Of a stretch of 41,756 nt of DNA, positions 7,510-26,456 are shown in pieces. Below the pieces are notes generated by a model. That model had not been told where the DNA came from and ran no database searches. It saw only the letters and a list, made by a program, of their open reading frames with translations. Every line of letters begins with the position of its first letter. The stretch's first letter is position 1. Origin of the DNA: Candidatus Heimdallarchaeota archaeon (GTDB taxonomy: Archaea; Asgardarchaeota; Heimdallarchaeia; JABLTI01); contig DXJV01000015.1 in NCBI GenBank assembly GCA_019056785.1, positions 1-41,756 of the forward strand, in the 5' to 3' direction. The translations under genes were made by a program, and so were the position numbers.

Positions 7510-7598
7510 CATCTTTCTCACAAGCCTTACTCACTCGAGCTTACTTTCTTTTTTAAAGCGCAAAAGGATTTATATTTAAAGGACTTGTGATTAAGACC

Positions 7599-8994: not shown

Positions 8995-9088
8995 GATTCC
9001 TCATTTTCAGTTTTACTCCTAGTTAAGTATGATAAATTTTCGCCCGCTAATTTAAAAAAGTTCTCGTCAGAAAAGAAAATGAAGATTA

Positions 9089-10939: not shown

Positions 10940-11075
10940 TCTTGACTACCTCACAGTTTCTCTTATTGCTTTTGAACTGACCACAAAAGAAACTTTCGAT
11001 TGCTTCTTTTAGGTCACTTTTGGAGAAGAGTGGCTCTTAAATACTTTTTTTATGATGTTACTTTTTGCGTTAGAA

Positions 11076-14000
11076 CTATTTTACACGCTCCATTTGACAA
11101 ACAGAGGCAACAAAGTCTTTGTTAGCAGTGGACCGAACGTTTAGAGTTAAACGGCTGTTTTTCTCGGGATGTTTTTCGCTGTTACGTACTTGTTCAGGAA
11201 GTTTCTCAATAGGGATTTGTAAGCTAATTTGCTTTTCTGTTAAATGTGTAATTGCCAAGTCGTGAAGATCAATATTTAATCCCACACCCAGCACTTTTGA
11301 AGCGGCTTCTTTTGCGCTCCAAATCTTCGCAAGCAGCGTATCGGAGATCTCAGCTTTTAATTTCTGAAGGAGAGCAAGTTCTTGTTTACTTAGCAATTCT
11401 TCGATCAAAATATTCGAACGTTTTTCTATTGCTTCAAGATCGATGCCGGTCATTTTCTCTGGGTGGACAATTCCGGCGGCAAAACCATTGCTATGAGTAA
11501 TAGATATTGAGATTGGTATTGCCTTTTTCCCTTGCTTAACATAAGGTTTGCCAAGAGAATCCTTTTCAATAAATAATTGATTAGGAATAAGTTTAGGATT
11601 TAATTGTTGCAATGCTTTCTTAATAGCAATAACTCCTGCGACCCACTCAAGCCTTCTCTTTTCAACGGAATAATTATGGAAGCGTGTCATTTCTACCTCA
11701 TGTAGAAAGTTTTGAAGGAATGACTCATCTTTTTCGATTTCTTTTTTTATGGTCTCAACAGAAACAACCTCAATTAATGCCTTTTTTGGCAAAGGAAAAA
11801 GCTGTTTCACTCGAGTGAGATGGACTTCATTCAGGGGGGCTATATTCGCGCCGAAATTAACTTGAGCGGTCTCATAATTTGCTGCTTGAAGAAGTAATTC
11901 CCCGCTCTTGCTTAGCACTTCAAATTGATAAACACTTCCGAAATTATTGTCAGCGTTTTTTCGTCCAACAACATAGGCTGGCTCTTCCGTCGCATCATAG
12001 AATTCCAGCAGCTTTATCTTATAGGGAAGGCCCATTTGCCGGCTGAGAACGAGGTCGTAGAACCCCATCGCTTGGAAACCTGCTTCAATGCTAAGTGGGT
12101 TTGCCAAAAGTTTTGTGAGCCCCCAGCTAAATTGCTTTTTCTCTGGGAGAGGGGCAATTTTACCGATAATTGCGTCACTCTTTTCAGCAACAGCTTCAAG
12201 GACTTGGAAGCGCTCTCCATGGGGGAGAATCTTATAAAGAAGGGATTTTTTCGCAAGATAAGGCAAAGTGGTTTTTGGCTTTGTTCGGCTACCTTTTTGA
12301 CGTTTGCCCAAAACTGCTTTTGCACTAAAGCGCTTTACTGGCAAACTAACCTTTTTTCCGTCTTTTATTTTGACAGTTTCAATTACAATTGCTGGCTCTG
12401 GCAAGGTTGTGAAGATTCGTGAAAAAATCGTTTGCTTTTCATTGTCTTTGAATTTAATTGCAGAACTAAATTCGACATTTTTTAACGCAGTAAGTTTCTT
12501 TTTGGGAAATGCAATGTCTGTTAATTCTGCAAATAACTCGATACCCATCACTCCCGGCAGATAAGGTATATTGTCAAACCGATGGTGGTCCAAATACAGA
12601 TCCGTTTCTAAACTGAACTCTCTTCTCGCACTAATTGAGCCATCGAAATTCCGTTTAATGCTACCAAGAAGAGGATAAATTTTTGGATTGACTTTAATAA
12701 ACGGCCCGGGTGATTCCAGCAATTCCCCAAGAACCCCAGAATAGATTACCTCGGGGTCTTGGCCGTATTCTAATTCATCAATAAATGCTTGAACGCCTTC
12801 CTCAACCTTTATTGGTGTGAGACCTTTTTGAAGGAGGATCTGCATAACTGACCCACGTGTCGCCATGCCGATTTCCGCCCAAGCTGACCAGCAAATTGCT
12901 GTTGCGCGCAATCCTTTCTTTCGCAATTGCCAGCAACTCTTTGAAAGATAATCATTGGCTGCAGCATAGTCCACTTGGCCAGCATTGCCATATCGCGCTG
13001 CTACAGATGAGAAACAAATGATAAATTTCAAACTTCGAAGATCAAGCGTTTCAATAAGGGTATCAAAACCCTTAACCTTGACATTATAAACATACTCGAA
13101 ATCTTCAAGACGCTTATCTTTGACTAACCGTGAGATTTCAATTCCGGCTGCGTGAACAACACCAGTGATTTTTTGGTGGAAGTCATTTTCAACCTTTTGA
13201 AGGACAGCAGCAAAAGCTTCAGATTGGCTCACATCAACTGAATAATATCTGACTTGCGAGCCTAAAGCAGTAAGTTCTTTCAGTGCCTTAAAGACCGCAA
13301 TTGCTTTCAAGGTTTTTGACCATTCACGTTGAATTTGGACAGGAGTGACTTTAATACCTTGTTCTTTCAAATGTGCGATATAACGATTCTTTTTCTCTTC
13401 TAACTCCTCTGCTGATAGTTGTGCAAGTTCTTCAATATTAGCTGGCAATTTGGTGCGACCAACAAGAGCGAGTTTCACAGCATATTTTTCAGCGAGTTTT
13501 TTAGTTATTTCAAAAGTTATTCCTTGAGCACCACCGGTGATTATAAGGAGGTCCTCTGAAGTCAATTGAAGTACTGGAGTCGCAGTTTTCTTGAGTGGCA
13601 TCTCAGGGGTGAGAAGAATTTGCCGTTCACCAGTTTCGGTATAAGCAACCTCTACTGCACCATCGCCGGTCATAAGTTCCTTCAAGACGTTTTTTGGTTC
13701 AGAAGTGGCTAAAACTCTAACAGCAAGGTCCTCTCGTTCTCTGGCGAAGGCTTTAGCAAAGCCTGATAGAGAGCCAAAAGTAGGTGAAGCTTTCGCCTTC
13801 CAGCCAAAGAATGTTGATGTTGGTTGAATGACAAGGAAGTAACCTCCTTCCTTAATAGTAATTTGTTTCGTTAGTTGAAAGAGAGCAGATGCAGTGTAAA
13901 GATGTCTTGTCTTTTTCGTTGACTTTGGTTCGATGAAAATCACGCCATCAACTTCTTCTGAGGACAGTTGCTCTGGCGAATGAAGAACTGTTTTAGCATC

Positions 14001-17000
14001 AACAGTTTGAAGAACAATTGATCTTTTTTCTGTCAGTAAACTTTCTAATTGACTTGCAAAGGGTGTTTGATCGCCTACAATAATGAATTTCTTTTTAGCA
14101 AGTTTAGTTTTAACGACTTTTGGGCATGGAACAGGTTGGAATTGTAATATTCTTCGGGTAATTGGCTGATGCGTTATTTGGCTTGTGACCGTCGGTTCAC
14201 TTTCTAGGGGGCCACCCTTACTTTCTTGTTGAGATGCTAAACGAGAAAGTATATAATCAGTTATTTTATTTACTGTGGAATAGTCCTGGATACGAATTCC
14301 TTCTTCCCGAGGAAGCGACCATTTGCTGCGAATAAGACCAAATATTTCAGCTTGTTTGACAGTATCTATACCCAAGTCTTCTTCAAGCTCCATATCAGGT
14401 TCTATCATATCAAGTGGATAGCCGGTCTTTTCAGAAATAAGCTGAAGAACTTCCTTTAGTATTGTCTCACGTGGAATTGTTTCCGAAGCACTTGCAGCGC
14501 TAGCGGTGATTTCTCCCCTTTTCTCCGCTACAGCACCTGCACCTAATCTGGAGCTTAGATATTCAGCGATTTTATTGACAGAATAATAATCTTGGATTCT
14601 TACGCCTTCTTCTCGTGGAAGGTTAAACTGGTTTCGAAGAAGGCCAAAGAGTTCTGCTTGTTTCACAGTATCTATGCCCAAATCTTCCTCGAGATGCATG
14701 TTTGGTTCAATCATCTCAACAGGATAGCCCGTCTTTTCTGAAATTAATTGAATAATGCTTTGTACGAGTTCTTTATTGGTCGTCGCAGTAACTGCTTGTT
14801 GTTTGGGGGGAGCATTAACAGGCAGGGTTGTTTGAGAAACCACGGAGGGATCCTCCCTAAGCAAGAGTGTCTTATTAACAACCTCGAGAGTAGCAAGCGA
14901 GCCACCTAACGACTTGAGCCAATTTTCATATTTCACACCTTCAAAGCGATTTGAAGAAGTATTTAACCGATAGAGCGCCATAGTTAACTGAGAGCCAAAC
15001 CCTGCAGCAAAACGCAAAGCATATTTTACAGGATAATGCCCTCCTTTTGAAAGATTTAAAGGTCCAAGCTCGGGGTCTTCCTCTTTCCAATTGGCAACCG
15101 GCGGAACAATTCCTTTCTGAAGAATTTTAACAGCAACCACATCCTCTATTCCAGCACCCATCGCATGCCCGGTAAAGCCTTTCGTGTTAGCAATAACAAT
15201 TTTTTCAATCATGTCTTTGAAGGTCTTCCTAAGAGCAGCAACTTCAGCAGAAGCACTCCCCCCTCGAGCGGGGGTGTATGTTTCATGGCTAACAAAAACC
15301 AGTTCTTTAGCGATCTCATCTCTTGAGATGTCATATCGATGCTCAATTATTGAAAGGAACTGATCCATTTGTGAGGAAATATGCTCTCTATCAAGACGCG
15401 TACCATGGAATGCAGAATTAACAATATGTGTTCCCAGAAGATCAACAATTGGTTTAACACCTCGAGTTCTCATTGCTGATTCCGATTCCAGCACCAATCC
15501 GACAGCCCCCATCCCAATGATCATGCCATGTCGCCGTTTATCGAAGGGGAGAGCAGCCTCTTTTACATTTTCTTTAGTTGTTGCTGCACCAATTGCAAGG
15601 AACCCTGAACCAATCCATTCAAATATTTGCTCATTTGTCACATCATCTGCAGCTATGACAATAACGCGTTTACACCTACCAGTTCGAATCCAATCCTCAC
15701 CAATAGCTATTGCTTGAGTCGTTGAAGAACAAGCAGCGTTTACTTGGGTGTTTGGCCCTCGGGCGCGGATGAATTGAGCAAACTGAGAGTGCCCCATTGA
15801 GAGGATTTCAAACAAAAACTTACGACTGAATTGAAATCTCGAATCTTTGTCATCTTGCAATTTCTCAATATTTTGGTGATAGAAGCTAGTAATCTGTTCC
15901 TTGGTTTGTGGATCCTTGATCTTGCTGATAAGCTCCTCGAAAAATGCCTTGAATTCATCAAGTTTTTGCTGAGCAAATTTGTCGGAAAGATAAGCAGAAA
16001 TAGTCGAAATCAAGTTGTTATAAGCCGGAAAAGCAGATGCAAACACAATACCAGTTTCATCTCTTAATGGTTCTGGGAGTGCCCATCCTTTGGCTATATC
16101 TTTCCCAACGGAAGTCTTAACTTTTAAGGGCATTAAGGGGATTCCTGCATCTCGCAAAGCCTCGATTCCTGCTGCAAAGGCCAATTGGAATGTGATATCC
16201 AAGACTTCTGTAAACTCTGCTTTTACGCCATATTCTTTTCTGAGATCAAATTCTCCTTTTTGTGCTGCAAGCTTGATGACTTCGTTGACATCCTTAATTG
16301 CTTGAAACTGGGCACCTTTAATGGCATCTTTGACAAGCCGGACAATGTTTTTATCCAGCATCTTTTCACGCAGCTTGTCAGGAATGGGATCAATGAAATT
16401 CTCGCCGGCTAAAATCGCATCAAAATTATCTTCAGCAAAGACTTTACGCTTTCTCCCCGGAAGCCCAATTGAAACGCCGGTAATACCAATGGCCTCTGTT
16501 GAGATGTTCAATTTTTCAGTCCGTCTTTTTTCCTCTAAAGCAGAAGCAATGGTGGTCTTATAAGTTTCATAGCCGGCTTTTAGAAACGCATTGATAGCCG
16601 GTGCTTGCAAAGTTAAATAGTCTTTAAATTGCTCATCTGTTGTAATTTTTGCCAGTTCTGGATCGGTTAAGAGGACATCAAACGGTGTTAGTTGGGAAAC
16701 AATTTTTTCTGCGGCTCGAATGGTTTTTGGTTTGGTAATGTAAAATTTCTCGAGAGGATACTTAAATTCTTGAGTATAAAAGTCACTCTCGAGTGAGGGG
16801 TAACGTATATTATAACCATAAACACTTAAGGCCGTTAAAAGTTCTGAGAAGTGCTTAGCTTCTCCTTTCTTTGGATGAATACTCGGCAGAGCAATGACAT
16901 TTTCTTTTTCTTCACAGATAGCACGAGCAAAGGTAGTGAGTACCCATTTTGGACCGACTTCAATGAAGGTCCGAACACCATTATCATACATCCAGTTAAT

Positions 17001-20000
17001 TTGCTTAATCCATTCAACCGGAGAACAAATCTGATGGCACAAAAGATCAATGATTTCCTTCCGTGTTTTAGGATACAATTCTCCAGTGACATTACTCGTA
17101 AGAGGGATTTTTGGCTTATTAAACGTCAATTTTTGCAACGCTTGACGGAAATCAGTGATTGCGGGTTCGACAATCTTTGAATGAAACGCTCCTGAAACCG
17201 AGAGGGGAATGGCCGTTATACCTTTTGCAGAGAATAATTCAATAGCTTTTTTCACGCCGGTAGTTGAACCGGAGATAACTGTCTGATTTGGAGCATTCTT
17301 ATTCGCAGCAATAACATAACTATCAATTTCTTTGAGAACTTTTTCCACTTCTTTAAAGCCTGCACCGATAGAAGCCATCATGCCTTTGTCTTTAGTGTCA
17401 AATTTTGCCATGGCTTTTCCTCGAGGAACAACAGCTAAAAAGCCATCACGCAAACTCAGAATTCCAGCCGCAACAAGGGCAGCATATTCGCCTAAACTAT
17501 GCCCAGCAACAAAGTCAGGTTTAATGCCGTAAGATTCCAAGAGCCGGAAAATTGCAATATCAAGCGTGAAAATTGCTGGTTGTGTAATTTCGGTTTGACG
17601 CAACAACTCTTTGCTTTCGGCTGTACTCTTCCCAATGCTAAAGATAATTTCAGAGATAGGAAAGCCAAGCAATTCTTTTGTGATTTCATCTGCTTCTCTA
17701 AAGGTCTCACGGACAACTTCAAATTTCTCCCAAAGCTCTTTACCCATACCAACATACTGACTGCCTTGACCCGGAAAGATAAAAGCAATCTTCCCGAGAG
17801 AATGATCGGTACTAAAGAACAACCCTTTGTTTCGCAAGAGTCTTCGTTTTTGTTTATTCTGCAATCCTTCTCGGGCTAAAGCGATTTTATTTGCAAGTTC
17901 GTTAAAACTTGTACATGAGATGCCTACTCGAACTTGTTTGGCTAGAGCAGAATGAGTCTTCATAGAAAAGTCTCGAACACGGGGGCCAACACCATCTTTC
18001 CCGAATGTGCTTTTTGGTATGTTTGCTCGAAATGCTGCAAGCGCCTTTTCCAATTGCTCCACAGAATCTGCACCTATAAAGAGCGGCTCCGTTTCGAGGG
18101 ATTCATGCTTTTCAAAATAAGCAGACCAGCCCTTAGTGTCTAAAACCCGCTCAATTTCAGTTGCCCCTAAGCGGTGAGCGAGTTTTGCACCTGCTAAAGC
18201 CTTTTTAAACTCAACGGCATCTAAGAGAGTTGGAAGATGTCCTTTAGTTCTTCCGGGAATAAATTCCTCTAATACAACATGATAATTTGTCCCACCGAAG
18301 CCAAATGACGAAACGCCTGCCAGCCGGGTACCAGACGGTGGCGTGGGCCAGGGTTGCTGTTCGACTGGAACAAAAAAGGGCGATTTTTCCCAATTAATTT
18401 TAGGATTGGGAATATCAAAATTAATCGAAGGTGGGATGACTTTATGATGAAGGGCTAAGGCAGTTTTAATTAGGGCAGCAATGCCGGCAGCACTTTTTAG
18501 GTGCCCAATTTGGCTTTTGACAGAACCAATAGCAATGGTTGCTGGCTTGCTCTTTTCAGCCAGCTCTTGCAACACCTGTAATTCAACAACATCACCAACT
18601 TTTGTGCTAGTTCCATGAGCTTCAATTAGCTGAATATCTTTCAAAGCAACATCTGCTCGAATTAAAGCCCGCTCAATTGCTAACCGCTGGCCAAGAGGAT
18701 TAGGAGCAGTAATACCTTTCCCTTTACCATCGGAAGAAGCACCCAAACCACGTATAACAGCATAAATGGTGTTGCCATCCTTAATAGCATCAGATAATCG
18801 TTTCAACACAACGAATCCTGCACCTTCACCCATCACAAAACCATCTGCTCGAGCGTCAAAAGGATATGAACCCTTTGCAGAAAGTGCACCAATCTTTGAG
18901 AATTTAACAAAGGTTGTTGGATCAAGTGAGCAGTCCGCGCCACCACAAAGAACAGCATCACATTCTTTGTCAAGAAGAACCTTTACAGCAACATTTAAAG
19001 CCGCGAGACTCGAGGCGCAAGCAGCATCAGTCGTCATGCTTTTACCGCGAAGATTGAAAATGTTGGCGATCCTTCCAGCAATGATATTAGAAAGCTCGCC
19101 CGGCATAGAATCTTCATTAATGACCGGCAATTCTTTTTCATATTTTTCGAGGAGGCTCTTCTCCAATGCTTGCCAATTTTTAGAGTCAATATGTGAGAAA
19201 TAAGGGGAGGAAGTTATAGATGACAACACTTCTGGAAGAAATACTTTTCGGGTATAATTTACTCTAATTTCATCCCCCATGGCATTTCCCACGATAACCG
19301 CTGTTTTGGAGTTGTCGACACCCTTCTTTAACAGACCGGCATCTGTCAATGCTTCCTTTGCCGCAAGCAAAGCAAGCTTTTGCGCACGGCCCATATTTTG
19401 AGCAACTTTTGGAGGGATCTTAAATTCCAAAGAATTGAATTTGAAATCGCTTATTGTTGCAGCAATCTTAGTGTAGGATTTATTAGGAGCATCTTTGTCA
19501 GGGTCAAAGAAAATATCTATTTTCCCTGCCCAACGTTCTGCGGGGATTTCTCTTATGGAATAAACTTTCTTGAGAATATTGTTCCAATACTCTTTGATAT
19601 TATGAGCATCCGGAAAGACACAACCCAAACCGACGATGGCAATACCTTCCAAATCGTCAAAGAGGAAAGTGCTTTCTTCAACTTGCTCTTCTGTGGTTTC
19701 TACCAGCCCTTGCACTGGTAGTGTCGCTTCACGGGGGGTGATTTTCTTAGCCAATAAACTGCTTAAATGTGGAAGTAAGGTTTGCGTCTTTTGAATGATT
19801 GTTTCTTTTGCGTTACTTGTTAATTCTTGATGTAACTGACTGACGGTTCGCACACAACGCAAACTTGCAACAATTTGTCCGATTAAATAATTCCCCTTTT
19901 GATATTGGCCCTCTTCATTAATGGGCATAAACCTGTTGGGCTTATCATCTTCTCCCTCGGGATTCCAAATCTCACCTCGCGCAGCAATCCTTGTTGCTCC

Positions 20001-21848
20001 TAAATTATCCCGTTCGTATTGGTGTTTTCGCTCTTTCAAACTTAAGCCTTGTCGTAAGCGCTCTAATTCACGTTTGATAATTTCTTTGGCAAAAGGAGTG
20101 GGAATAGACCGTGCTCGGGTATTGACGGTCTCACCCAGCACCATCGTTTCTTTGGCATTTAAAGCAAGACGTTGATATAATGGTTTGAGGGTGCCTGTAC
20201 CGACAATTTCTTTGGTGAGTAAATAAGCTGTTCCAACCCAGAAGACACCATGCATTAATGCCGGTAAAGCACCACAAAGAACAGCGGCTTGAGCAGCTGA
20301 GAAGCGGTCGCCAATGCCACCGGCAAAAGCAACAGTAATCTTTCGTCGACTTTCTTTGAGCTTTTTTTCGAATGCTTGTAGCCTATGTAATGACAATTCC
20401 CAGAGGACAAAGCTGGTTAGAATGCCAATATGTCCTCCGCATTCCATCCCTTCTAAAACCAGGTAATTCACCCCAGCTTCGATTGCCTCTGCAAAAATTG
20501 CTGGCGAAGGCGTATGTAAAAAGGTGGTAATGCCATAGGACTGCACTTCTTTTGCTTGCTGGATGGTTCCTGCAGCGACTACAACGAAGGGGGGTTTTTC
20601 TTCTCGCAGAATCTCGAGGTGTTTGTCTCGCGCCGTTTTGTTTGCTTCAAGACCAATTATACCGCACCCAAATGGTTTTTCACGCAATAATTGTTTCGTT
20701 CCTTTAATTAAGGTTCGAGTTTGATTGGGGAAAAGCGAACCTAAAGCTAAAAAGGGTAACGCCCCTTCATCTGCCAATATTTTTGCAAACTCTGGCGATT
20801 CTGAAACGTTTGCCATAGGTCCTTGAATGATGGGAAATCTTGTTCCTAATTGCTTTGTAACTTCAACACCTTCCCTAATTGGAAAATTATCAACAACACC
20901 AGCGATCTGATTTTTTGCTTGTGAAAGTAAACCGTCAATGATCCCCGCTGTTGTTCTAAATTTATCGACGAGAATTTTTGCGAAGGGAATGTCTTGTCCC
21001 ACAGGCAATAAGGAATTTGCAATATCTTTTGAATCAAACATCGGACGCTCAGCAAGAATGTCTTTTTGAAAAGCAATTGAACGTTCTTTCAATGACAATT
21101 CTAAAAGGCTCTTTTCTTTTTTGACAAACTCTTTGACAATTTTCGTTCCCAAACGAGCATAAACGCGATATTTTTTCGCAGTCGTCTTCCCCAGCACCTG
21201 AGTGTCAGTTGCATCCAATTTTGCCAGGAAGGACTTTACCTCTGCTGACAGCGGTGATTCAGGAGTTAAGAATAACTGGGTGTCAAGAATAACGCCCTTT
21301 GCACCGACAGAAAAAATGCCGCCAATCGTATAAAAACCAATACCACCTTGCACGAGAAACGTAAGGCCGGCATTAGCAAATTGCTGTGTTAAAATGAAGG
21401 ATGTTTCATCTCCAACCCTGCCTGCAGCCTCATTTCCTTTAACAACATATGCTTCCGCCCATTTTTTATTGTAGGCTTCATTTAGTGACACGACTTCAGC
21501 AAGGAGGACCAGCTGCTTTGCTTGAGCCTTTGTGAGTTCTTTTTCAGTGAGATCAAAATCGCCAATAATAACAATTAATGGAAAAGTATCAGAATGTAAA
21601 GCTAATACTTGTTCGAATTGTTTTTTAGTAGTAACTCGCACACCCCATGAAGGAGCCAATTGTTGGTAACAGCTTTTCAACTGTTCTAACGACTCCTCCA
21701 GAGACAACCGCTCAAGATCTATTAATCCAACACCTCCAGCATCTATGACACTTTTTAGAAGGCTAATATTAGAAACACCTTGAGGGTTGTAGGCGAAAAT
21801 TGGTTTTCTGTTCTTGCAATAGGTTTCAAAATCAATTTTACTACACAT
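11076..21848 (-). CDS. Single-chain iterative type I FAS/PKS megasynthase (pseudoER-ER-KS-AT-KS-ACP-ACP-KR-DH-PPTase), 3590 aa
   Basis: ER: PIIQGPM and EGMECGGH (H473). KS1: DAAC944, EAHGTST, KSQIGH. AT: FPGQGSQ, GHS1451LGE, GAFHS. KS2: NAAC2040, SHETYT, KGFTGH. Two ACPs: EKTGYP...DLGIDTVKQ. KR: TGGAQGI, HAAG, Y2961AAAN. DH: H3089RFDNIPYLP. PPTase: ISITHS, GIDLE, WSAKEA. AGGAG RBS. Confidence 0.95.
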   Translation of the reverse strand: MCSKIDFETYCKNRKPIFAYNPQGVSNISLLKSVIDAGGVGLIDLERLSLEESLEQLKSCYQQLAPSWGVRVTTKKQFEQVLALHSDTFPLIVIIGDFDLTEKELTKAQAKQLVLLAEVVSLNEAYNKKWAEAYVVKGNEAAGRVGDETSFILTQQFANAGLTFLVQGGIGFYTIGGIFSVGAKGVILDTQLFLTPESPLSAEVKSFLAKLDATDTQVLGKTTAKKYRVYARLGTKIVKEFVKKEKSLLELSLKERSIAFQKDILAERPMFDSKDIANSLLPVGQDIPFAKILVDKFRTTAGIIDGLLSQAKNQIAGVVDNFPIREGVEVTKQLGTRFPIIQGPMANVSESPEFAKILADEGALPFLALGSLFPNQTRTLIKGTKQLLREKPFGCGIIGLEANKTARDKHLEILREEKPPFVVVAAGTIQQAKEVQSYGITTFLHTPSPAIFAEAIEAGVNYLVLEGMECGGHIGILTSFVLWELSLHRLQAFEKKLKESRRKITVAFAGGIGDRFSAAQAAVLCGALPALMHGVFWVGTAYLLTKEIVGTGTLKPLYQRLALNAKETMVLGETVNTRARSIPTPFAKEIIKRELERLRQGLSLKERKHQYERDNLGATRIAARGEIWNPEGEDDKPNRFMPINEEGQYQKGNYLIGQIVASLRCVRTVSQLHQELTSNAKETIIQKTQTLLPHLSSLLAKKITPREATLPVQGLVETTEEQVEESTFLFDDLEGIAIVGLGCVFPDAHNIKEYWNNILKKVYSIREIPAERWAGKIDIFFDPDKDAPNKSYTKIAATISDFKFNSLEFKIPPKVAQNMGRAQKLALLAAKEALTDAGLLKKGVDNSKTAVIVGNAMGDEIRVNYTRKVFLPEVLSSITSSPYFSHIDSKNWQALEKSLLEKYEKELPVINEDSMPGELSNIIAGRIANIFNLRGKSMTTDAACASSLAALNVAVKVLLDKECDAVLCGGADCSLDPTTFVKFSKIGALSAKGSYPFDARADGFVMGEGAGFVVLKRLSDAIKDGNTIYAVIRGLGASSDGKGKGITAPNPLGQRLAIERALIRADVALKDIQLIEAHGTSTKVGDVVELQVLQELAEKSKPATIAIGSVKSQIGHLKSAAGIAALIKTALALHHKVIPPSINFDIPNPKINWEKSPFFVPVEQQPWPTPPSGTRLAGVSSFGFGGTNYHVVLEEFIPGRTKGHLPTLLDAVEFKKALAGAKLAHRLGATEIERVLDTKGWSAYFEKHESLETEPLFIGADSVEQLEKALAAFRANIPKSTFGKDGVGPRVRDFSMKTHSALAKQVRVGISCTSFNELANKIALAREGLQNKQKRRLLRNKGLFFSTDHSLGKIAFIFPGQGSQYVGMGKELWEKFEVVRETFREADEITKELLGFPISEIIFSIGKSTAESKELLRQTEITQPAIFTLDIAIFRLLESYGIKPDFVAGHSLGEYAALVAAGILSLRDGFLAVVPRGKAMAKFDTKDKGMMASIGAGFKEVEKVLKEIDSYVIAANKNAPNQTVISGSTTGVKKAIELFSAKGITAIPLSVSGAFHSKIVEPAITDFRQALQKLTFNKPKIPLTSNVTGELYPKTRKEIIDLLCHQICSPVEWIKQINWMYDNGVRTFIEVGPKWVLTTFARAICEEKENVIALPSIHPKKGEAKHFSELLTALSVYGYNIRYPSLESDFYTQEFKYPLEKFYITKPKTIRAAEKIVSQLTPFDVLLTDPELAKITTDEQFKDYLTLQAPAINAFLKAGYETYKTTIASALEEKRRTEKLNISTEAIGITGVSIGLPGRKRKVFAEDNFDAILAGENFIDPIPDKLREKMLDKNIVRLVKDAIKGAQFQAIKDVNEVIKLAAQKGEFDLRKEYGVKAEFTEVLDITFQLAFAAGIEALRDAGIPLMPLKVKTSVGKDIAKGWALPEPLRDETGIVFASAFPAYNNLISTISAYLSDKFAQQKLDEFKAFFEELISKIKDPQTKEQITSFYHQNIEKLQDDKDSRFQFSRKFLFEILSMGHSQFAQFIRARGPNTQVNAACSSTTQAIAIGEDWIRTGRCKRVIVIAADDVTNEQIFEWIGSGFLAIGAATTKENVKEAALPFDKRRHGMIIGMGAVGLVLESESAMRTRGVKPIVDLLGTHIVNSAFHGTRLDREHISSQMDQFLSIIEHRYDISRDEIAKELVFVSHETYTPARGGSASAEVAALRKTFKDMIEKIVIANTKGFTGHAMGAGIEDVVAVKILQKGIVPPVANWKEEDPELGPLNLSKGGHYPVKYALRFAAGFGSQLTMALYRLNTSSNRFEGVKYENWLKSLGGSLATLEVVNKTLLLREDPSVVSQTTLPVNAPPKQQAVTATTNKELVQSIIQLISEKTGYPVEMIEPNMHLEEDLGIDTVKQAELFGLLRNQFNLPREEGVRIQDYYSVNKIAEYLSSRLGAGAVAEKRGEITASAASASETIPRETILKEVLQLISEKTGYPLDMIEPDMELEEDLGIDTVKQAEIFGLIRSKWSLPREEGIRIQDYSTVNKITDYILSRLASQQESKGGPLESEPTVTSQITHQPITRRILQFQPVPCPKVVKTKLAKKKFIIVGDQTPFASQLESLLTEKRSIVLQTVDAKTVLHSPEQLSSEEVDGVIFIEPKSTKKTRHLYTASALFQLTKQITIKEGGYFLVIQPTSTFFGWKAKASPTFGSLSGFAKAFAREREDLAVRVLATSEPKNVLKELMTGDGAVEVAYTETGERQILLTPEMPLKKTATPVLQLTSEDLLIITGGAQGITFEITKKLAEKYAVKLALVGRTKLPANIEELAQLSAEELEEKKNRYIAHLKEQGIKVTPVQIQREWSKTLKAIAVFKALKELTALGSQVRYYSVDVSQSEAFAAVLQKVENDFHQKITGVVHAAGIEISRLVKDKRLEDFEYVYNVKVKGFDTLIETLDLRSLKFIICFSSVAARYGNAGQVDYAAANDYLSKSCWQLRKKGLRATAICWSAWAEIGMATRGSVMQILLQKGLTPIKVEEGVQAFIDELEYGQDPEVIYSGVLGELLESPGPFIKVNPKIYPLLGSIKRNFDGSISARREFSLETDLYLDHHRFDNIPYLPGVMGIELFAELTDIAFPKKKLTALKNVEFSSAIKFKDNEKQTIFSRIFTTLPEPAIVIETVKIKDGKKVSLPVKRFSAKAVLGKRQKGSRTKPKTTLPYLAKKSLLYKILPHGERFQVLEAVAEKSDAIIGKIAPLPEKKQFSWGLTKLLANPLSIEAGFQAMGFYDLVLSRQMGLPYKIKLLEFYDATEEPAYVVGRKNADNNFGSVYQFEVLSKSGELLLQAANYETAQVNFGANIAPLNEVHLTRVKQLFPLPKKALIEVVSVETIKKEIEKDESFLQNFLHEVEMTRFHNYSVEKRRLEWVAGVIAIKKALQQLNPKLIPNQLFIEKDSLGKPYVKQGKKAIPISISITHSNGFAAGIVHPEKMTGIDLEAIEKRSNILIEELLSKQELALLQKLKAEISDTLLAKIWSAKEAASKVLGVGLNIDLHDLAITHLTEKQISLQIPIEKLPEQVRNSEKHPEKNSRLTLNVRSTANKDFVASVCQMERVK
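14235..14780 (-). repeat. Tandem duplicated ACP-coding segments inside the megasynthase (approximate bounds)
   Basis: Two near-identical copies of QLISEKTGYP.(E/D)MIEP.M.LEEDLGIDTVKQAE.FGL.R....LPREEG.RIQDY..VNKI..Y..SRL, spaced 306 nt apart. Confidence 0.9.
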
Positions 21849-21889
21849 CGTTTCTTTTCTCCTGTTTGTTATTTTTTTTTGAGAAAGTC

Positions 21890-23491
21890 TTAAAGTGGCA
21901 TGTTGCCGTGTTTCTTATTAAACCGACGCTCTCTTTTTCGGAGCAATGGCCACAGTGCGTTGATCAATTTCTTTCTCGTTTCAGATGGAAGAATGACATC
22001 ATCGATGTAGCCTTTTTCAGCTGCTAGATAAGGATTATTGAATTCCTCTGCATACTTTGTCTTTAATTTCTCGAGCAACTCTTCAGGATATTCCGTCTTT
22101 GCGAGTTCCCGCCGATAAAGAATTTGGACCGCCCCTTCTGCACCCATAACAGCAATCTCAGCACTTGGCCAAGCAAAATTAATGTCACAGGCAAGATGCT
22201 TGGAGCCCATAACAATGTATGCACCACCATATGCCTTACGGGTAATCACAGTGAGTTTTGGCACCGTTGCTTCAGCGTAAGCATAAATAAGTTTGGCACC
22301 ATGTTTTATGATACCATTGTGTTCTTGGTCTAAGCCAGGGAGAAAGCCTGGAACATCAACAAAAGTAATTATTGGGATATTAAATGAGTCACAAAATCGG
22401 ATGAAACGAGCGGCCTTGATAGAGGCGTTAATATCAAGTGCACCAGCCAAAATAGATGGTTGATTTGCCACAACTCCAACAGGGTAGCCATTTAATCGCC
22501 CAAAACCAATGATGATGTTCTGAGCCCACTTTTTCTGGAGTTCCAAGAAATTTCCTCGATCTACTACTTGCAGGATGATTTCTCTCATATCATAAGGTTC
22601 TTGCGGGTCTTCCGGGATGATAGTGTTAAGTTCTTGCAGGCCCACAGTATTTGTTGTGGTAATCTCTTTTATTGGTGGATCCTCGAGATTATTAGAAGGT
22701 AGGTAGGAGAGGAGCACTTTGATGAGCTCTATTGATTCGAGCTCGTCCGAGCCAACGAGATGGGCAATTCCGGAGTTCACACTATGTGTAGATGCCCCAC
22801 CAAGCTCCTCAAAAGTTGCTTCCTCTCCTGTGACAGCTTTCACAACTGCAGGACCAGTTACGAACATGTAAGAGGTATCTTCGGTCATTACAATAAAATC
22901 AGTAAGTGCAGGAGAATAGACCGCCCCACCTGCCGATGGTCCCACAATACAGGAAATTTGAGGGATGATCCCTGAAGCACGAACATTTCTTAAGAAAAGA
23001 TCGCCATACCCTGCCAGCGAGTTTGCACCTTCTTGAATTCTTGCGCCACCAGAGTCGTTGAAACCAATCACAGGTGCACCGTTCTGGATTGCTTGATCCA
23101 ACAAGTCAACAATTTTCTTGGCATGAGCTTCGCCCAAACTGCCACCGAGGATGGTAAAATCCTGGCTATAAACATAAACAAGTTTGCCATTCACCTGCCC
23201 GAAGCCGGTAATCACACCGTCAGTATAATATTTCTTGTTTTCTAAGCCAAAATTCCGGCAATGATGACGAACAAACATTTTTGTCTCAGTAAAGGTTCCC
23301 GGATCCAAAAGCAATTCAATTCTTTGCCTAGCAGTTAACTTTCCTTTTGCCAGTTGTTTTTGGATTGCCTGCTCCCCTCCACCCTCGAGTGCAACTACAC
23401 GCTTTTCTAAGAGCTCGTCGTTTTTCTGCTCCACACGACTTTTTGTGGTCAGAACTCTTTTTCCTTTCACTGTTTCGGGTTTCAAATTCAT
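21890..23491 (-). CDS. pccB: Acyl-CoA (acetyl/propionyl-CoA) carboxylase carboxyltransferase subunit, PccB-type
   Basis: GKLTARQRI, DSGGARIQEG, GGAVYSPALTD, DVPGFLPG, RKAYGGAY, AVMGAEGA and KKHGNMPL. Ends 41 nt before the megasynthase start on the same strand. Confidence 0.95.
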   Translation of the reverse strand: MNLKPETVKGKRVLTTKSRVEQKNDELLEKRVVALEGGGEQAIQKQLAKGKLTARQRIELLLDPGTFTETKMFVRHHCRNFGLENKKYYTDGVITGFGQVNGKLVYVYSQDFTILGGSLGEAHAKKIVDLLDQAIQNGAPVIGFNDSGGARIQEGANSLAGYGDLFLRNVRASGIIPQISCIVGPSAGGAVYSPALTDFIVMTEDTSYMFVTGPAVVKAVTGEEATFEELGGASTHSVNSGIAHLVGSDELESIELIKVLLSYLPSNNLEDPPIKEITTTNTVGLQELNTIIPEDPQEPYDMREIILQVVDRGNFLELQKKWAQNIIIGFGRLNGYPVGVVANQPSILAGALDINASIKAARFIRFCDSFNIPIITFVDVPGFLPGLDQEHNGIIKHGAKLIYAYAEATVPKLTVITRKAYGGAYIVMGSKHLACDINFAWPSAEIAVMGAEGAVQILYRRELAKTEYPEELLEKLKTKYAEEFNNPYLAAEKGYIDDVILPSETRKKLINALWPLLRKRERRFNKKHGNMPL

Positions 23492-23585
23492 ATACTATTT
23501 CTCCTGTTTCAAAGCTTTCTTAACGGAAATTAATGCCAAACCGTCAATATTTTACGAGGAAAACACTAACAAAAGGGTATCGTAT

Positions 23586-23627: not shown

Positions 23628-23639
23628 AATCGGATAGTC

Positions 23640-23646: not shown

Positions 23647-23670
23647 CTTGACCCAAGAAACACTTGTATA

Positions 23671-25146
23671 ATGTTGTTCAACTCTCTCCTAGTAGCAAAC
23701 AGAGGTGAGATTGCTATCCGGATAATCCGTGCAGCACGCGAGCTGGGGATATATACGTATGCAATTTACACGCCTGTGGATAAAAATGCACTTCACGTGA
23801 AATTGGCAAACGAAGCCTTTGAACTTATTGAAGATGGCAAAACACCCGGCTATTTGGACATTGAGCAAATCATTGCCATCTGCAACCGTGAAGGAATAGA
23901 AAGCATCCATCCAGGCTATGGGTTTTTATCTGAGAGTGAAGAATTCGCCCGCCGAGTTCAAGAAATCGGAATCAATTTTATTGGGCCTCCTCCTGAGGTA
24001 ATCAAATTACTGGGGAATAAAGTAAAAAGCCGGCAAGAAGCAATGAAAGCTGGCTTAACCGTTCCTGAAGGCTCGGACATTATTTCATCAACGAAATATG
24101 CTCTAAAAGAAGCCCAAAGGATCGGTTTCCCAGTAATCGTGAAGGCAGTTTTCGGTGGAGGTGGAATGGGGATCCGCGTTGCACGCACTAATCGAGAGCT
24201 CCGTCTCGCGATTAAAAGCGCAAGTGCTCAAGCACAGGCGGCTTTTGGCAGAGGACAAGTCTTTCTGGAAAAGTTCATAGAACAACCACGCCATATCGAA
24301 TTTCAAATTCTGGCGGATTCCTACGGGAATGTTGTCCATCTCGGAGAACGAGAATGCTCAATTCAGCGACGGAACCAAAAACTGCTAGAAGAAGCACCCT
24401 CAAAAGCCCTTTCCCCTGAAAAACGGAAAGAGATTGGAGAAATGGTCTGCGAACTTGCACGAAACTTGAACTATGTCAGTGCAGGTACAGTTGAATTTCT
24501 GTATAAAAACAATCAAGTAATGTTTAACGAGATCAATCCCCGCATACAAGTCGAACATCCAGTAACTGAAATGTTGACCGGAAAAGACATCGTGAAAGAA
24601 CAGATTAAGATCGCATTAGGACAGGAACTTTCCTTTAAACAAGAAGAAATCAATTTTCGCGGGCACGCCATGGAATTACGAATTAACGCTGAGGATCCTT
24701 TAAAGGATTTTTATCCCTCTCCCGGTAAAATTAAGAAATTTATTGCCCCTGGAGGGCCACAAATCAGGTTTGATACTGCAATGTATGAAGGATTTGAAAT
24801 TCCTAATTGCTATGATTCTCTTATTGGGAAATTGATAGTTGGAGGTGAAACTCGAGAAGAAGCCATTACCCGGGCCCTTAATGCTTTGAAAGAATTGATT
24901 GTCACAGGTTTTCCAACAAATATCGGCTTTTTCGAAGTTTTACTAAAAGACCCCAAATTCAAGAAAGGAGACATTAGCATTAATTTCATTCAAGACCAAA
25001 AAATCCTCGAGAAACTCGAAGCAGAAATTTACATCAAAGCTGCAGCACTCTTCGCTGTAGGCTTAAAAAAGAACGAAGTGAACCTTCCTTCTGTCTCGAA
25101 GAATTGGCAGATAAAGGGAAGACTAGATGCTATTGGGAGGGAATGA
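23671..25146 (+). CDS. accC: Biotin carboxylase subunit
   Basis: LVANRGEIAIRI, IHPGYGFLSE, KAVFGGGGMG, ERECSIQRRNQK, NPRIQVEHPVTE, RINAEDP and YDSLIGKL. Confidence 0.95.
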   Translation: MLFNSLLVANRGEIAIRIIRAARELGIYTYAIYTPVDKNALHVKLANEAFELIEDGKTPGYLDIEQIIAICNREGIESIHPGYGFLSESEEFARRVQEIGINFIGPPPEVIKLLGNKVKSRQEAMKAGLTVPEGSDIISSTKYALKEAQRIGFPVIVKAVFGGGGMGIRVARTNRELRLAIKSASAQAQAAFGRGQVFLEKFIEQPRHIEFQILADSYGNVVHLGERECSIQRRNQKLLEEAPSKALSPEKRKEIGEMVCELARNLNYVSAGTVEFLYKNNQVMFNEINPRIQVEHPVTEMLTGKDIVKEQIKIALGQELSFKQEEINFRGHAMELRINAEDPLKDFYPSPGKIKKFIAPGGPQIRFDTAMYEGFEIPNCYDSLIGKLIVGGETREEAITRALNALKELIVTGFPTNIGFFEVLLKDPKFKKGDISINFIQDQKILEKLEAEIYIKAAALFAVGLKKNEVNLPSVSKNWQIKGRLDAIGRE

Positions 25147-25628
25147 CCATGGAGAAAAAATATCTAGTGAATATAGATGGCATGGAATTGGAGCTACAAC
25201 AAATAAAAGATAGCATAAAAATTGGCAAAAAAACAGTAAAACCAGAGGTCATTTTTAATGGAAAGTATTATCGAGTCTATTTGGACGGAAAAGAGTTCAA
25301 AGTGGAATTCAAAGAAGATGCTGTTTTTCTTGATGGAAAAGAGGTTGACTTTAACTTCCGGCTTGCACCCCAAATTATGGGTAAAAAAGAGTCTATGGCG
25401 TCGAAAAAGAAAGCAGCAATTCGCGCGGCTATTCCCGGCAAAATTGTGGAAGTTAAATGTTCGGTTGGAGAAATTGTCAAAGATCAACAATGTCTACTCG
25501 TCCTAGAATCAATGAAAATGCGGAATGAAATTTTAGCTCCTATTGCTGGCACTGTTGAAAAAATTCTCGTAAATGTTGGCGACCAAGTAAAAACACGGCA
25601 GTTATTACTGTCCATCCTAAAAAAGTAA
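25143..25628 (+). CDS. accB: Biotin carboxyl carrier protein
   Basis: AAIPGKIV...LESMKMRNEI.AP biotinylation motif. ATGA overlap with the accC stop (alternative ATG at 25149). Confidence 0.92.
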   Translation: MTMEKKYLVNIDGMELELQQIKDSIKIGKKTVKPEVIFNGKYYRVYLDGKEFKVEFKEDAVFLDGKEVDFNFRLAPQIMGKKESMASKKKAAIRAAIPGKIVEVKCSVGEIVKDQQCLLVLESMKMRNEILAPIAGTVEKILVNVGDQVKTRQLLLSILKK

Positions 25629-25650: not shown

Positions 25651-26454
25651 GTGATTGTTGAAGATGTAAAGATACCCTACTATCAAAGTTATTTAGGGGG
25701 GAGATTTTTCATCCCTTCAAACGGGAAAACAAGATACCCGGTAGTATGTAAAGTTCATGGCTTGATTTCGAATTCTTTTGTTGCCGAAGAAAAACTTGCC
25801 TCCCTTCTAACGAGGAGTAATATTGGTTATTTTGTCTTTCATTTTACAGGCTATCATGGCAGCCCAGGCGAAACATCCATTCATTCAGAATTGCTCAATT
25901 TAGATTCTGTTATAACTTTTTTGACAAACCATCCCCGTGTGGACCCGCTAAATATTGGCTTGTATGCAGTGAGTCTGGGAGCAGCAGTTGCAATTTGCCA
26001 CACAGCAAGAGACTCGAGAGTAATGGCACTAGCGCTTCAAACACCTCTTTTCGACTTTTCATTCATGGTTAATTATCCGGAGTTTTCCAATCTCTGGCAA
26101 GGGCTGGCACTGGCAGGAGAAATTGTTTTACCAAAAGAAGGGGTAAAAGAAAAGCTGCTGGAAGATATTCAAGGAAATAATCCCCTTGAAGACATTAAAC
26201 TTATTGCGCCGAGAGAAATACTAATCATTGCCGGTGGGAAAGATACCTTTATTCCTTTTGCGGGCATACAAAAACTCTTCCAAAAAGCAAAGGAACCAAA
26301 GAAATTAGTGGTCATCCCTGCTGCGGATCATAATACTAACGATAAAAAAGCTCTTGATGAAGTCAATAATCTTCTCTTGGACTTTTTCTTGAAACAATTC
26401 CAAAATACAACAAATAAAATGTTCTCAAATTATAAGAATAAAATTGAAGCATGA
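25651..26454 (+). CDS. Alpha/beta hydrolase (candidate thioesterase/release enzyme)
   Basis: VHG oxyanion motif, G.HGSPG, nucleophile elbow YAVSLGAA, GGKD acid and ADH histidine. Directly downstream of accB. Confidence 0.85.
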   Translation: MIVEDVKIPYYQSYLGGRFFIPSNGKTRYPVVCKVHGLISNSFVAEEKLASLLTRSNIGYFVFHFTGYHGSPGETSIHSELLNLDSVITFLTNHPRVDPLNIGLYAVSLGAAVAICHTARDSRVMALALQTPLFDFSFMVNYPEFSNLWQGLALAGEIVLPKEGVKEKLLEDIQGNNPLEDIKLIAPREILIIAGGKDTFIPFAGIQKLFQKAKEPKKLVVIPAADHNTNDKKALDEVNNLLLDFFLKQFQNTTNKMFSNYKNKIEA

Positions 26455-26456
26455 TT

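What the first reader, a model, noticed from the sequence alone, without database searches (positions are those of the whole stretch)
14361..14669. Both ACP domains have Thr instead of the phosphopantetheine-accepting Ser (LGIDTVK)
Seen: ACP1 T2394 (codon ACT, 14667-14669) and ACP2 T2496 (ACT, 14361-14363) read DLGID-T-VKQAE. Neighbouring synonymous sites differ between the copies (GGC/GGT, GTG/GTC), so a single sequencing error cannot explain it. Established: carrier proteins are modified on the Ser of (G)xDS, for example LGIDSIK in PfaA. No Ser-type ACP is visible in the window, yet the other catalytic residues are intact and a PPTase is fused in cis. Inference: threonine-linked phosphopantetheinylation by a specialised cis PPTase, or else a trans-acting ACP or a CoA-based cycle.
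Basis: partly seen in the sequence, partly recalled or inferred. Interest (0 to 1): 0.85.

Follow-up and report, generated by a model that had tools for sequence, protein, structure and literature searches.

The report
Carrier domains with threonine attachment site
Both acyl-carrier domains of a giant fatty-acid/polyketide-type synthase in this Heimdall (Asgard) archaeon have threonine where every studied carrier protein has the serine that holds the phosphopantetheine arm. The same swap is fixed in a very large, uncharacterised enzyme family, which points to a threonine-linked form of a textbook cofactor attachment that I found no description of.

Summary
Residues T2394 and T2496 (both ACT) of a 3590-aa ER-KS-AT-KS-ACP-ACP-KR-DH-PPTase protein sit exactly on the phosphopantetheinyl-serine position, at the N-terminus of helix II. 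This is not an error: three or four independent metagenome assemblies reproduce both codons.

The feature is family-wide. In an index-free search of 1.84 billion proteins, 89 of the best 150 tandem-ACP proteins are all-Thr and 47 all-Ser. Apart from a few degenerate copies, mostly at array ends, only Thr or Ser occupies the site.

- Orthologues in closed genomes of the same archaeal class carry a mixed Ser-Thr-Ser array, served by one fused PPTase that is the only PPTase in the genome.
- An all-Ser relative nests beside the Thr clade.
- All four Thr codons are used.
- A complex model puts the Thr against the PPTase catalytic glutamate.
- This genome (82.5% complete) has no other carrier domain and no other PPTase.

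Best reading, about 0.65: the Thr hydroxyl carries phosphopantetheine, put on by the cis Sfp-type PPTase. This is not shown biochemically. E. coli ACP S36T is the standard non-modifiable control.

This scan has reported the same feature at least eight times on other genomes. I found no published description.

The parts
11076..21848 (-). Megasynthase gene, 3590 aa: ER(NMO x2)-KS-AT-KS'-ACP-ACP-KR-DH-PPTase
   Evidence: ORF list and translation; Pfam domains; TIGR02813 PfaA 935 bits, below its 1010 cut-off. pN 0.28 against saturated pS 0.73-0.75 versus same-genus or same-family orthologues.
19809..21848 (-). N-terminal enoyl-reductase region (two NMO/FabK-like stretches, residues 1-680)
   Evidence: PF03060 with 2 stretches; TIGR03151 FabK-like.
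18261..19649 (-). Ketosynthase 1 (residues 734-1196)
   Evidence: PF00109/PF02801/PF16197; the DAACASS active-site Cys is visible in the translation.
16827..17783 (-). Acyltransferase (residues 1356-1674), GHSLG motif
   Evidence: PF00698; TIGR00128 FabD-like 257 bits.
14859..16151 (-). Second KS-like domain in the CLF position (about residues 1900-2330); keeps a Cys (NAACSST)
   Evidence: Second PF00109 stretch, PF08545 and PF00108 hits; translation.
14529..14786 (-). ACP1 (residues 2355-2440)
   Evidence: PF00550 27.8 bits; genome search hit; AlphaFold model with pLDDT 90.8.
14667..14669 (-). Codon ACT = T2394, at the phosphopantetheine-serine position of ACP1
   Evidence: Sequence; alignment to DS serines of solved ACPs; first residue of helix II; touches the PPTase catalytic Glu in the complex model.
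14223..14480 (-). ACP2 (residues 2457-2542)
   Evidence: PF00550 23.8 bits; genome search hit.
14361..14363 (-). Codon ACT = T2496, at the phosphopantetheine-serine position of ACP2
   Evidence: Sequence; alignment to PigH second ACP and other ACPs.
12873..13544 (-). Ketoreductase (residues 2769-2992)
   Evidence: PF08659, PF00106.
11859..12674 (-). PKS-type dehydratase (residues 3059-3330)
   Evidence: PF21089 and PF14765, both below the curated cut-off.
11079..11831 (-). Fused Sfp-type PPTase (residues 3340-3590). Catalytic residues: H3452, D3470, E3472, K3513, E3514, K3518.
   Evidence: PF01648 64.6 bits plus weak N-lobe hits PF17837/PF22624. Alignment to Sfp 1qr0/4mrt matches GIDxE and WSxKExxxK. 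These residues are invariant or nearly so in 34 fused PPTases. It is the only PPTase found in the genome.
21890..23491 (-). Acyl-CoA carboxylase carboxyltransferase, directly upstream (malonyl-CoA supply)
   Evidence: PF01039 646 bits. The same neighbour lies upstream of the G022 orthologue and next to the Elusimicrobium synthase.
23671..25628 (+). Biotin carboxylase (23671-25146) and biotin carboxyl carrier protein (25104-25628)
   Evidence: PF02786/PF00289/PF02785 and PF00364.
25651..26454 (+). Alpha/beta hydrolase, candidate chain-releasing thioesterase (inferred)
   Evidence: PF12146. It is 28% identical, E 3e-37, to the hydrolase directly downstream of the G022 orthologue.
26457..27194 (-). 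Biotin protein ligase
   Evidence: PF03099.

Best explanation
The two domains are working acyl carrier domains of an iterative, self-contained type I fatty-acid/polyketide-like synthase. Their 4'-phosphopantetheine arm is attached to the side-chain oxygen of Thr2394 and Thr2496 instead of a serine. Proposed mechanism (inferred): the C-terminal Sfp-type PPTase domain binds CoA and Mg2+ through H3452, D3470 and E3472. Its Glu3514 (equivalent to Sfp Glu151) deprotonates the Thr hydroxyl at the N-terminus of ACP helix II. That hydroxyl attacks the beta-phosphate of CoA to give O-(4'-phosphopantetheinyl)-threonine and 3',5'-ADP. The thiol arm is then loaded with malonyl by the AT and cycles through KS, KR, DH and ER. 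The neighbouring acyl-CoA carboxylase supplies malonyl-CoA. Shown here: positional homology, fold, family-wide conservation, Ser/Thr interchange, an intact and selected PPTase, and the absence of any other carrier or PPTase in the genome. Inferred: the modification itself, its site and the product.
For: 1. The Thr aligns with the DS serine of solved ACPs and is the first residue of helix II in a pLDDT 90.8 model.
2. The site needs a hydroxyl. It is T 605, S 28, gap 1 and nothing else in 634 domains. In the index-free search, 660 domains give T 395 and S 251, plus 7 gaps and 6 other residues, mostly in single copies at array ends. Other good helix N-cap residues (Asp, Asn) are essentially absent, so capping alone does not explain the pattern.
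3. Ser and Thr interchange at this exact position between orthologues and within one array. Closed genomes G007 and G022 of the same class have Ser-Thr-Ser in an orthologous 3515-aa synthase with the same synteny. Several Thermoplasmatota proteins have a Ser first copy and Thr in the rest. All-Ser P0140 (Heimdallarchaeota, fused PPTase) nests beside the window's clade on a KS tree. That tree needs 4 Ser/Thr changes in all, at least 2 of them forced by well-supported branches.
4. Purifying selection for Thr. All four ACN codons are used: 15/15/14/5 within the class and 211 Thr against 2 Ser in 80 other loci. This holds although Ser is one base away and synonymous sites are saturated (pS 0.68-0.79 against pN 0.18-0.38 in every domain, ACP and PPTase included).
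5. The fused PPTase keeps every catalytic residue. It is the only PPTase, and the two Thr-ACPs are the only carrier domains, found in this genome. G022, a closed genome, likewise has a single PPTase. Across 81 genomes of the class, PPTase and carrier domain are both present in 55 and both absent in 15.
6. Complex model of PPTase domain + ACP1 + CoA + Mg: ipSAE 0.87 in all three runs, best of 3 controls 0.00. That mark was reached by 58 of 80 solved complexes and 2 of 110 mismatched pairs. Runs agree in at least 92% of contacts and partner pLDDT is at least 86. PPTase residue 175 of the domain (E3514) touches ACP residue 40 (T2394).
7. In 2 of 3 bacterial Thr-type synthases checked, a PPTase gene lies directly downstream.
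Against: There is no biochemical precedent. I found no paper on Thr-linked phosphopantetheine. E. coli ACP S36T is used as the standard mutant that cannot be modified and does not complement (PMC3340395; also used as a non-interacting variant in PMC13343975). I found no Thr-specific feature in the PPTase, so nothing in the sequence explains acceptance of a secondary alcohol. The complex model may pass by likeness to solved Sfp-PCP and AcpS-ACP complexes, and it cannot tell Thr from Ser. The genome is only 82.5% complete. Same-genus relatives carry a separate small Ser-type ACP with its own AcpS-type PPTase, which could lie in the missing part. Relatives are not independent, so the counts overstate the number of evolutionary events.
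Confidence: 0.65

Rival explanations
1. The Thr domains are never phosphopantetheinylated. They act as non-covalent docking or scaffold domains, the synthase works on CoA thioesters, and the PPTase domain has another or no substrate.
For: E. coli AcpS cannot use S36T ACP. Archaea are generally thought to make fatty acids without ACP (general knowledge). No modification has been demonstrated.
Against: A scaffold role does not explain why only Ser or Thr is tolerated at the site in more than 1200 domains. It does not explain why Ser and Thr swap within orthologous arrays. It does not explain why PPTase catalytic residues are invariant and under purifying selection in genomes with no other carrier. 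The AT is FabD-like, a class that transfers malonyl to a carrier thiol.
Confidence: 0.12
2. Phosphopantetheine sits elsewhere: on another hydroxyl of the same domain (Thr19 of KTGYP, or Ser/Thr69), or on a separate Ser-type ACP acting in trans that is missing from this incomplete assembly.
For: Thr19 is 99% and position 69 is 94% Thr in the family. The genome is 82.5% complete. Same-genus genomes G009, G024, G027 and G033 carry an 81-98 aa Ser-type ACP (motif WDSM) beside a 162-aa AcpS-type PPTase.
Against: KTGYP occurs equally in the Ser-type arrays of this superfamily, so it is not a Thr-type speciality. The DS serine is the established site in PfaA-type ACPs (general knowledge). Positions 19 and 69 are not in the modelled PPTase interface, while 39-41 are. 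The small Ser-ACP of relatives sits in its own cluster with an FkbH-like enzyme and a deacetylase-like gene. That cluster gives no tblastn hit in this genome and is not found in closed genome G022, which still keeps the synthase and its PPTase.
Confidence: 0.1
3. The Thr carries a different group (for example phosphate or a sugar) or is a regulatory 'off' variant, so that the Thr copies are silent spacers and only Ser copies work.
For: Mixed Ser/Thr arrays exist. Tandem ACP arrays are known to tolerate inactive copies (general knowledge of PUFA synthases).
Against: Most arrays, including this one, have no Ser copy at all (89 of 150 representatives), yet all catalytic domains are under strong purifying selection. 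The Thr copies are the best-conserved part of the array, with 9 invariant columns in 48 sequences.
Confidence: 0.08
4. Sequencing or assembly artefact, or a decaying pseudogene.
For: None beyond the unusual residue.
Against: Two codons with different synonymous neighbours. Identical in contigs of other runs. A 3590-aa intact frame. Family-wide conservation.
Confidence: 0.01

Closest known systems
Tandem ACP domains of PfaA-type PUFA synthases with their PPTase PfaE (NCBIfam TIGR02813)
   Same: Same superfamily: 112 bits for the ACP pair and 935 bits for the whole protein. Shared features are tandem ACPs, the KTGYP...DLGID motif frame, and KS-AT...ACPn-KR order with a dedicated Sfp-type PPTase.
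   Different: The PfaA type reads DLGIDSIKRVE with Ser, as seen in the Aurantiochytrium hits P0002 and P0082. Here it is DLGIDTVKQAE with Thr. The whole protein scores below the family cut-off (935 against 1010). ER, DH and PPTase are fused into one chain and there are only two ACPs.
'Type R' secondary-lipid synthase cluster (Shulse & Allen 2011, PMC3098273)
   Same: A pfaA homologue with KS-MAT-CLF-ACP(3-6)-KR followed by a PPTase gene, sometimes with an acetyl-CoA carboxylase gene; product unknown. Elusimicrobium, a Type R host, carries Thr-type arrays with a PPTase and carboxyltransferase downstream.
   Different: That paper mentions neither threonine nor serine (0 occurrences). Here the PPTase, ER and DH are fused in cis, there are two ACPs, and the host is an archaeon.
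Megasynthases with a PPTase fused in cis: enediyne PKSE (KS-AT-ACP-KR-DH-PPTase) and fungal FAS alpha subunit (recalled from general knowledge; not tested here)
   Same: C-terminal PPTase domain in the same chain as its carrier domain; the ...ACP-KR-DH-PPTase order matches PKSE.
   Different: Those carriers use serine. No ER, second KS or tandem ACPs in PKSE. Relationship not tested phylogenetically here.
E. coli ACP S36T mutant
   Same: The same Ser-to-Thr change at the same position of the same fold.
   Different: It is an artificial mutant that AcpS cannot modify and that cannot support growth (PMC3340395). Here Thr is the selected natural state and is paired with an Sfp-type, not an AcpS-type, enzyme.

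Membership tests
Acyl/peptidyl carrier protein (Pfam PP-binding, PF00550) | Sequence match above the curated cut-off | tested here: met
   27.8 and 23.8 bits against a cut-off of 20.8; both found again by genome search.
Acyl/peptidyl carrier protein (Pfam PP-binding, PF00550) | Small helical-bundle fold with the attachment residue at the N-terminus of helix II | tested here: met
   AlphaFold pLDDT 90.8, helices 4-19, 40-53 and 70-83, with residue 40 the Thr. Foldseek top hits are all ACPs with TM 0.73-0.85.
Acyl/peptidyl carrier protein (Pfam PP-binding, PF00550) | Conserved serine in the (D/x)S(L/I) motif as phosphopantetheine acceptor | tested here: not met
   Thr in both domains; Thr in 605 of 634 domains of the nearest relatives.
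Acyl/peptidyl carrier protein (Pfam PP-binding, PF00550) | Is actually converted to the holo form by a PPTase | not testable with these tools
   Only indirect support: complex model 0.87 against 0.00 for controls, with Thr touching the catalytic Glu.
Sfp-type (group II) 4'-phosphopantetheinyl transferase | Two-lobed pseudo-dimer of about 230 aa with an ACPS-family C-lobe | tested here: met
   PF01648 64.6 bits. N-lobe PF17837 22.7 and PF22624 16.2 bits, both below cut-off. Residues 20-127 of the domain align to AcpS monomers and 85-222 to Sfp.
Sfp-type (group II) 4'-phosphopantetheinyl transferase | Catalytic motifs: His for CoA, Asp-x-Glu for Mg2+, (W/F)(S/T/C)xKE(A/S)xxK with the catalytic Glu | tested here: met
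   ITHS, GIDLE and WSAKEAASK align to Sfp GIDIE and WSMKESFIK. H113, D131, K174, E175 and K179 are invariant, and E133 at least 90% conserved, in 34 fused PPTases.
PfaA, polyketide-type PUFA synthase (TIGR02813) | Whole-protein score above the curated cut-off | tested here: not met
   935.3 bits against 1010.1.
PfaA, polyketide-type PUFA synthase (TIGR02813) | Companion genes pfaB, pfaC (KS-CLF-DH2) and pfaD as separate subunits | tested here: not met
   The window holds one all-in-one chain. Its neighbours are acyl-CoA carboxylase subunits, a hydrolase and a biotin ligase.
Type R secondary-lipid synthase cluster (PMC3098273) | pfaA homologue KS-MAT-CLF-ACP(3-6)-KR plus a separate downstream PPTase gene | tested here: inconclusive
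   The core order KS-AT-KS'-ACP-KR is present. However, there are 2 ACPs, the PPTase is fused, and ER and DH are added. The KS tree places it with Thr-type relatives, but no Type R reference sequence was in the tree.

The most novel reading that the evidence does not exclude
O-(4'-phosphopantetheinyl)-threonine is a natural and widespread protein modification. A whole branch of PfaA-like lipid/polyketide synthases, found in a dozen or more bacterial and archaeal phyla and including the only carrier-protein system of many Heimdall archaea, uses Thr as the acceptor. Its Sfp-type PPTases accept both Ser and Thr, while AcpS-type enzymes do not. On this reading the Thr insulates these carriers from the housekeeping AcpS/ACP pair.
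Probability: 0.55. Interest if true: 0.85.

Novelty: new variant of a known kind. Interest (0 to 1): 0.78.

Why it matters
Attachment of phosphopantetheine to a conserved serine is stated as a rule for carrier proteins in fatty-acid, polyketide and non-ribosomal peptide synthesis, for example in the abstract of PMC9769936. Serine-based motif rules, if applied strictly, would score these domains as inactive. If Thr is a true acceptor, several things follow:
- The rule has a large natural exception.
- Thousands of synthases in uncultured bacteria and archaea are probably active rather than crippled.
- A Thr-accepting PPTase/ACP pair would offer an orthogonal labelling and engineering handle beside AcpS, which does not use S36T.
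- Asgard archaea, otherwise without ACP, would have a complete ACP-dependent fatty-acid-type machine with its own malonyl-CoA supply. That bears on the origin of eukaryotic and bacterial-type lipids.

The claim can be tested with one co-expression and a mass spectrum.

Tried and rejected
- Literature: six text searches for Thr-linked phosphopantetheine, the motif strings, Asgard PKS/FAS and Type R follow-ups found nothing relevant. The DSL-motif preprint 10.1101/2025.01.28.635281 does not treat Ser-to-Thr.
- Thr-specific PPTase signature: I compared 33 Thr-associated fused PPTases with the one all-Ser relative (P0140) and with Sfp. No discriminating column was seen near the active site, but with one Ser-type member the power is very low.
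- Selection on the Thr copy against the Ser copies in the mixed array: G007 and G022 are too close (1-3 non-synonymous and 3-5 synonymous differences per domain) to say anything.
- dN/dS proper: synonymous sites are saturated between the available orthologues, so only pN against pS is meaningful.
- Expression: no RNA holder was listed for this stretch. This says nothing either way.
- Relatives' small Ser-ACP/AcpS/FkbH cluster: no tblastn hit in this genome. Absence in an 82.5% complete MAG is not proof.
- The 616-aa ORF downstream (9089-10939) has no Pfam hit and only a weak TPR-like lead in the Atlas, score 0.84, below the useful range.
- A sequencing-error explanation is rejected.
Full report
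**What is there.** The window holds one intact minus-strand ORF, 11076-21848, of 3590 aa. Pfam and NCBIfam give the following order:
- two NMO/FabK-like enoyl-reductase stretches
- KS
- a FabD-like AT
- a second KS-like domain in the CLF position, which keeps its Cys
- two PP-binding domains
- KR
- a PKS-type DH
- a C-terminal Sfp-type PPTase

Codon 14669..14667 is ACT (T2394) and codon 14363..14361 is ACT (T2496), each within EEDLGIDTVKQAE. The Gly and Val codons beside them differ between the two copies. HMMER alignments to solved carrier proteins place both Thr on the DS serine. An AlphaFold model of ACP1 (pLDDT 90.8) starts helix II at the Thr, and its best PDB matches are all ACPs. Contigs of three to four other metagenome runs, from hydrothermal-vent and sediment samples, reproduce both codons.

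**It is a family trait.** A word-seeded search with the ACP pair returned 2993 proteins. In the best 120, plus the query, 634 ACP domains have T 605, S 28 and one gap at the site. The Ser cases are two Ser-type thraustochytrid-like PUFA synthases (13 and 10 copies) and five single copies, four of them the first copy of an array, in otherwise Thr-type arrays.

That search is biased towards shared words, so I repeated it without an index against 1.84 billion representatives. This gave 5309 hits at E <= 1e-3. Among the best 150 proteins, 89 arrays are all-Thr, 47 all-Ser, 2 mixed, and a few Thr arrays have one degenerate copy, mostly at an array end. Thr goes with Val, Gln and Ala at +1, +3 and +4 (T-V-K-Q-A), and Ser mostly with I-K-R-V.

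Hosts include Thermoplasmatota, Heimdallarchaeota, Chloroflexota, Elusimicrobiota (including E. minutum), Spirochaetota, Myxococcota, Actinomycetota (including the cultured Planobispora takensis), Acidobacteriota, Thermodesulfobacteriota and Bacillota. In the 80 loci kept, the site is T 211 and S 2, with all four Thr codons in use.

**Ser and Thr are interchangeable here, and nothing else is.** On a KS tree of 100 proteins the Ser/Thr label needs only 4 changes, against 24.5 for shuffled labels, and at least 2 of them are forced by well-supported branches. The nearest Ser-type protein, P0140, comes from a Heimdallarchaeota MAG. It has a fused PPTase and reads DLGIDSVKVAE.

I fetched the ACP regions of 20 orthologues from the same archaeal class. 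They hold 49 Thr codons (ACT 15, ACC 15, ACA 14, ACG 5) and 6 Ser codons. The two closed genomes G007 and G022 have a Ser-Thr-Ser array in an orthologous 3515-aa ER-KS-AT-KS-ACP3-KR-DH-PPTase. Synteny is the same, with a carboxyltransferase upstream and an orthologous alpha/beta hydrolase beside it. G022 has one PPTase in its whole closed genome, the fused one. So one enzyme faces both Ser and Thr acceptors. Good helix N-cap residues other than Ser and Thr (Asp, Asn) are essentially absent, so capping does not explain the restriction.

**The system is under selection and self-contained.** Against three same-genus or same-family orthologues (57-59% identity), every domain shows pN 0.17-0.40 against saturated pS 0.68-0.79. 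This includes the ACP pair (0.22-0.23) and the PPTase (0.34-0.38). In 34 fused PPTases (33 with Thr arrays, 1 with Ser) the CoA-binding His, the Mg2+-binding Asp and the Lys-Glu...Lys of WSxKExxxK are invariant, and the Mg2+-binding Glu is at least 90% conserved. They align to Sfp D107, E109, E151 and K155 (Sfp numbering from general knowledge).

In this genome (82.5% complete, 102 contigs) the only PP-binding domains are the two Thr domains, and the only PPTase is the fused one. Across 81 genomes of the class, the counts are as follows:

| PPTase | Carrier domain | Genomes |
|---|---|---|
| present | present | 55 |
| absent | absent | 15 |
| one present, one absent | | 11, mostly fragmented MAGs |

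The flanking genes encode acyl-CoA carboxylase carboxyltransferase, biotin carboxylase, BCCP, a biotin ligase and an alpha/beta hydrolase. Together these provide a malonyl-CoA supply and a likely release enzyme.

**Modelled enzyme-substrate geometry.** I folded the PPTase domain and ACP1, each with its own alignment, together with CoA and Mg:
- ipSAE was 0.87 in three runs, and the best of three controls was 0.00.
- That mark was reached by 58 of 80 solved complexes and 2 of 110 mismatched pairs.
- The runs agree in at least 92% of contacts, and partner pLDDT is at least 86.
- The confident contacts include PPTase residue 175 (E3514, the Sfp E151 equivalent) with ACP residue 40 (T2394).

This is the canonical geometry. 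However, solved Sfp-PCP and AcpS-ACP complexes exist, so the pass may reflect likeness, and the model cannot tell Thr from Ser.

**What argues against.** No paper in the library describes Thr-linked phosphopantetheine. E. coli ACP S36T is the routine control that cannot be modified and fails to complement (PMC3340395). I could find no Thr-specific residue in the PPTases, though the comparison has low power. Same-genus genomes carry an extra small cluster: a deacetylase-like gene, a 162-aa AcpS-type PPTase, a 618-aa FkbH-like enzyme and an 81-aa ACP with a normal WDSM serine. That cluster is not detected in this genome or in closed G022, so it is not needed for the megasynthase. It does show that a Ser-ACP/AcpS pair and a Thr-ACP/Sfp-type pair can coexist, each with its own transferase.

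**Comparison with known systems.** The closest characterised relatives are the tandem ACPs of PfaA with PfaE. The closest described gene cluster is 'Type R' of Shulse & Allen (PMC3098273). That paper lists Elusimicrobium among its hosts and mentions neither serine nor threonine. The cis PPTase recalls enediyne PKSE and fungal FAS (general knowledge, not tested). The domains meet the fold and profile criteria of carrier proteins but fail the defining serine. I therefore file them as a Thr variant of the carrier-protein/PPTase system, not as ordinary members.

**Verdict.** The most likely explanation (about 0.65) is genuine O-phosphopantetheinyl-threonine, installed by a dual-specific Sfp-type PPTase in cis. 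The rivals are unmodified scaffold domains (0.12), another site or a trans Ser-ACP (0.10), another modification or silent copies (0.08), and artefact (0.01).

This scan has already reported the same feature on at least eight other genomes.

Noticed in passing
window 11076-27194: A Heimdall archaeon carries a complete, self-contained ACP-dependent fatty-acid/polyketide-type machine: an all-in-one ER-KS-AT-KS-ACP2-KR-DH-PPTase, acyl-CoA carboxylase subunits, a biotin ligase and a hydrolase. Fifty-five of 81 genomes of the class have both a PPTase and a carrier domain, mostly inside 3200-3600-aa frames. The product is unknown. This is relevant to the archaeal/bacterial lipid divide.
   Followed up: partly
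L004 1879-5328 (G027), L006 839-4283 (G047); not found in the window's genome: Same-genus and same-class genomes hold a second small cluster: a deacetylase-like gene (287-291 aa), an AcpS-type PPTase (162-163 aa), an FkbH-like enzyme (618-626 aa) and a Ser-type ACP (81-82 aa, motif WDSMTHL). This is a separate carrier/transferase pair that can coexist with the Thr-type synthase.
   Followed up: partly
window 14859-16151 (-): The second KS-like domain, in the position usually called chain-length factor, keeps an active-site Cys (NAACSST) and two His-containing motifs. It may therefore be a second working ketosynthase rather than a Gln-type CLF.
   Followed up: no
L029 (G022:C1) 890-11437, and L015 (G007): Orthologous synthases in two closed genomes have three ACPs in the order Ser-Thr-Ser. 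G007 also shows a second PPTase match in a 208-aa frame about 2.7 kb after the fused one, which may be a duplication or a frameshift.
   Followed up: partly
window 3250-3987, 31617-33152, 33698-34783, 34965-35948: Domains typical of eukaryotic membrane and trafficking proteins lie in the same window: Frag1/DRAM/Sfk1 (below cut-off), TRAP-beta with BatD, ArsA/Get3-type ATPase and a VTT (VMP1/TMEM41-like) domain. This is consistent with an Asgard genome.
   Followed up: no
window 9089-10939 (-): A 616-aa ORF directly downstream of the synthase on the same strand has no Pfam family and only a weak TPR-like lead. Whether it belongs to the pathway is unknown.
   Followed up: partly
window 27793-28971 (+): A winged-helix/MarR-like N-terminus is fused to a branched-chain polyamine synthase BpsA C-terminal domain.
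   Followed up: no
P0016, P0026, P0040 (Thermoplasmatota; P0008 similar, source unnamed): In these PPTase-fused megasynthases the first ACP of the array has Ser (LGIDSVKQVE) and all later copies have Thr. This positional pattern suggests the first copy may have a distinct role.
   Followed up: no
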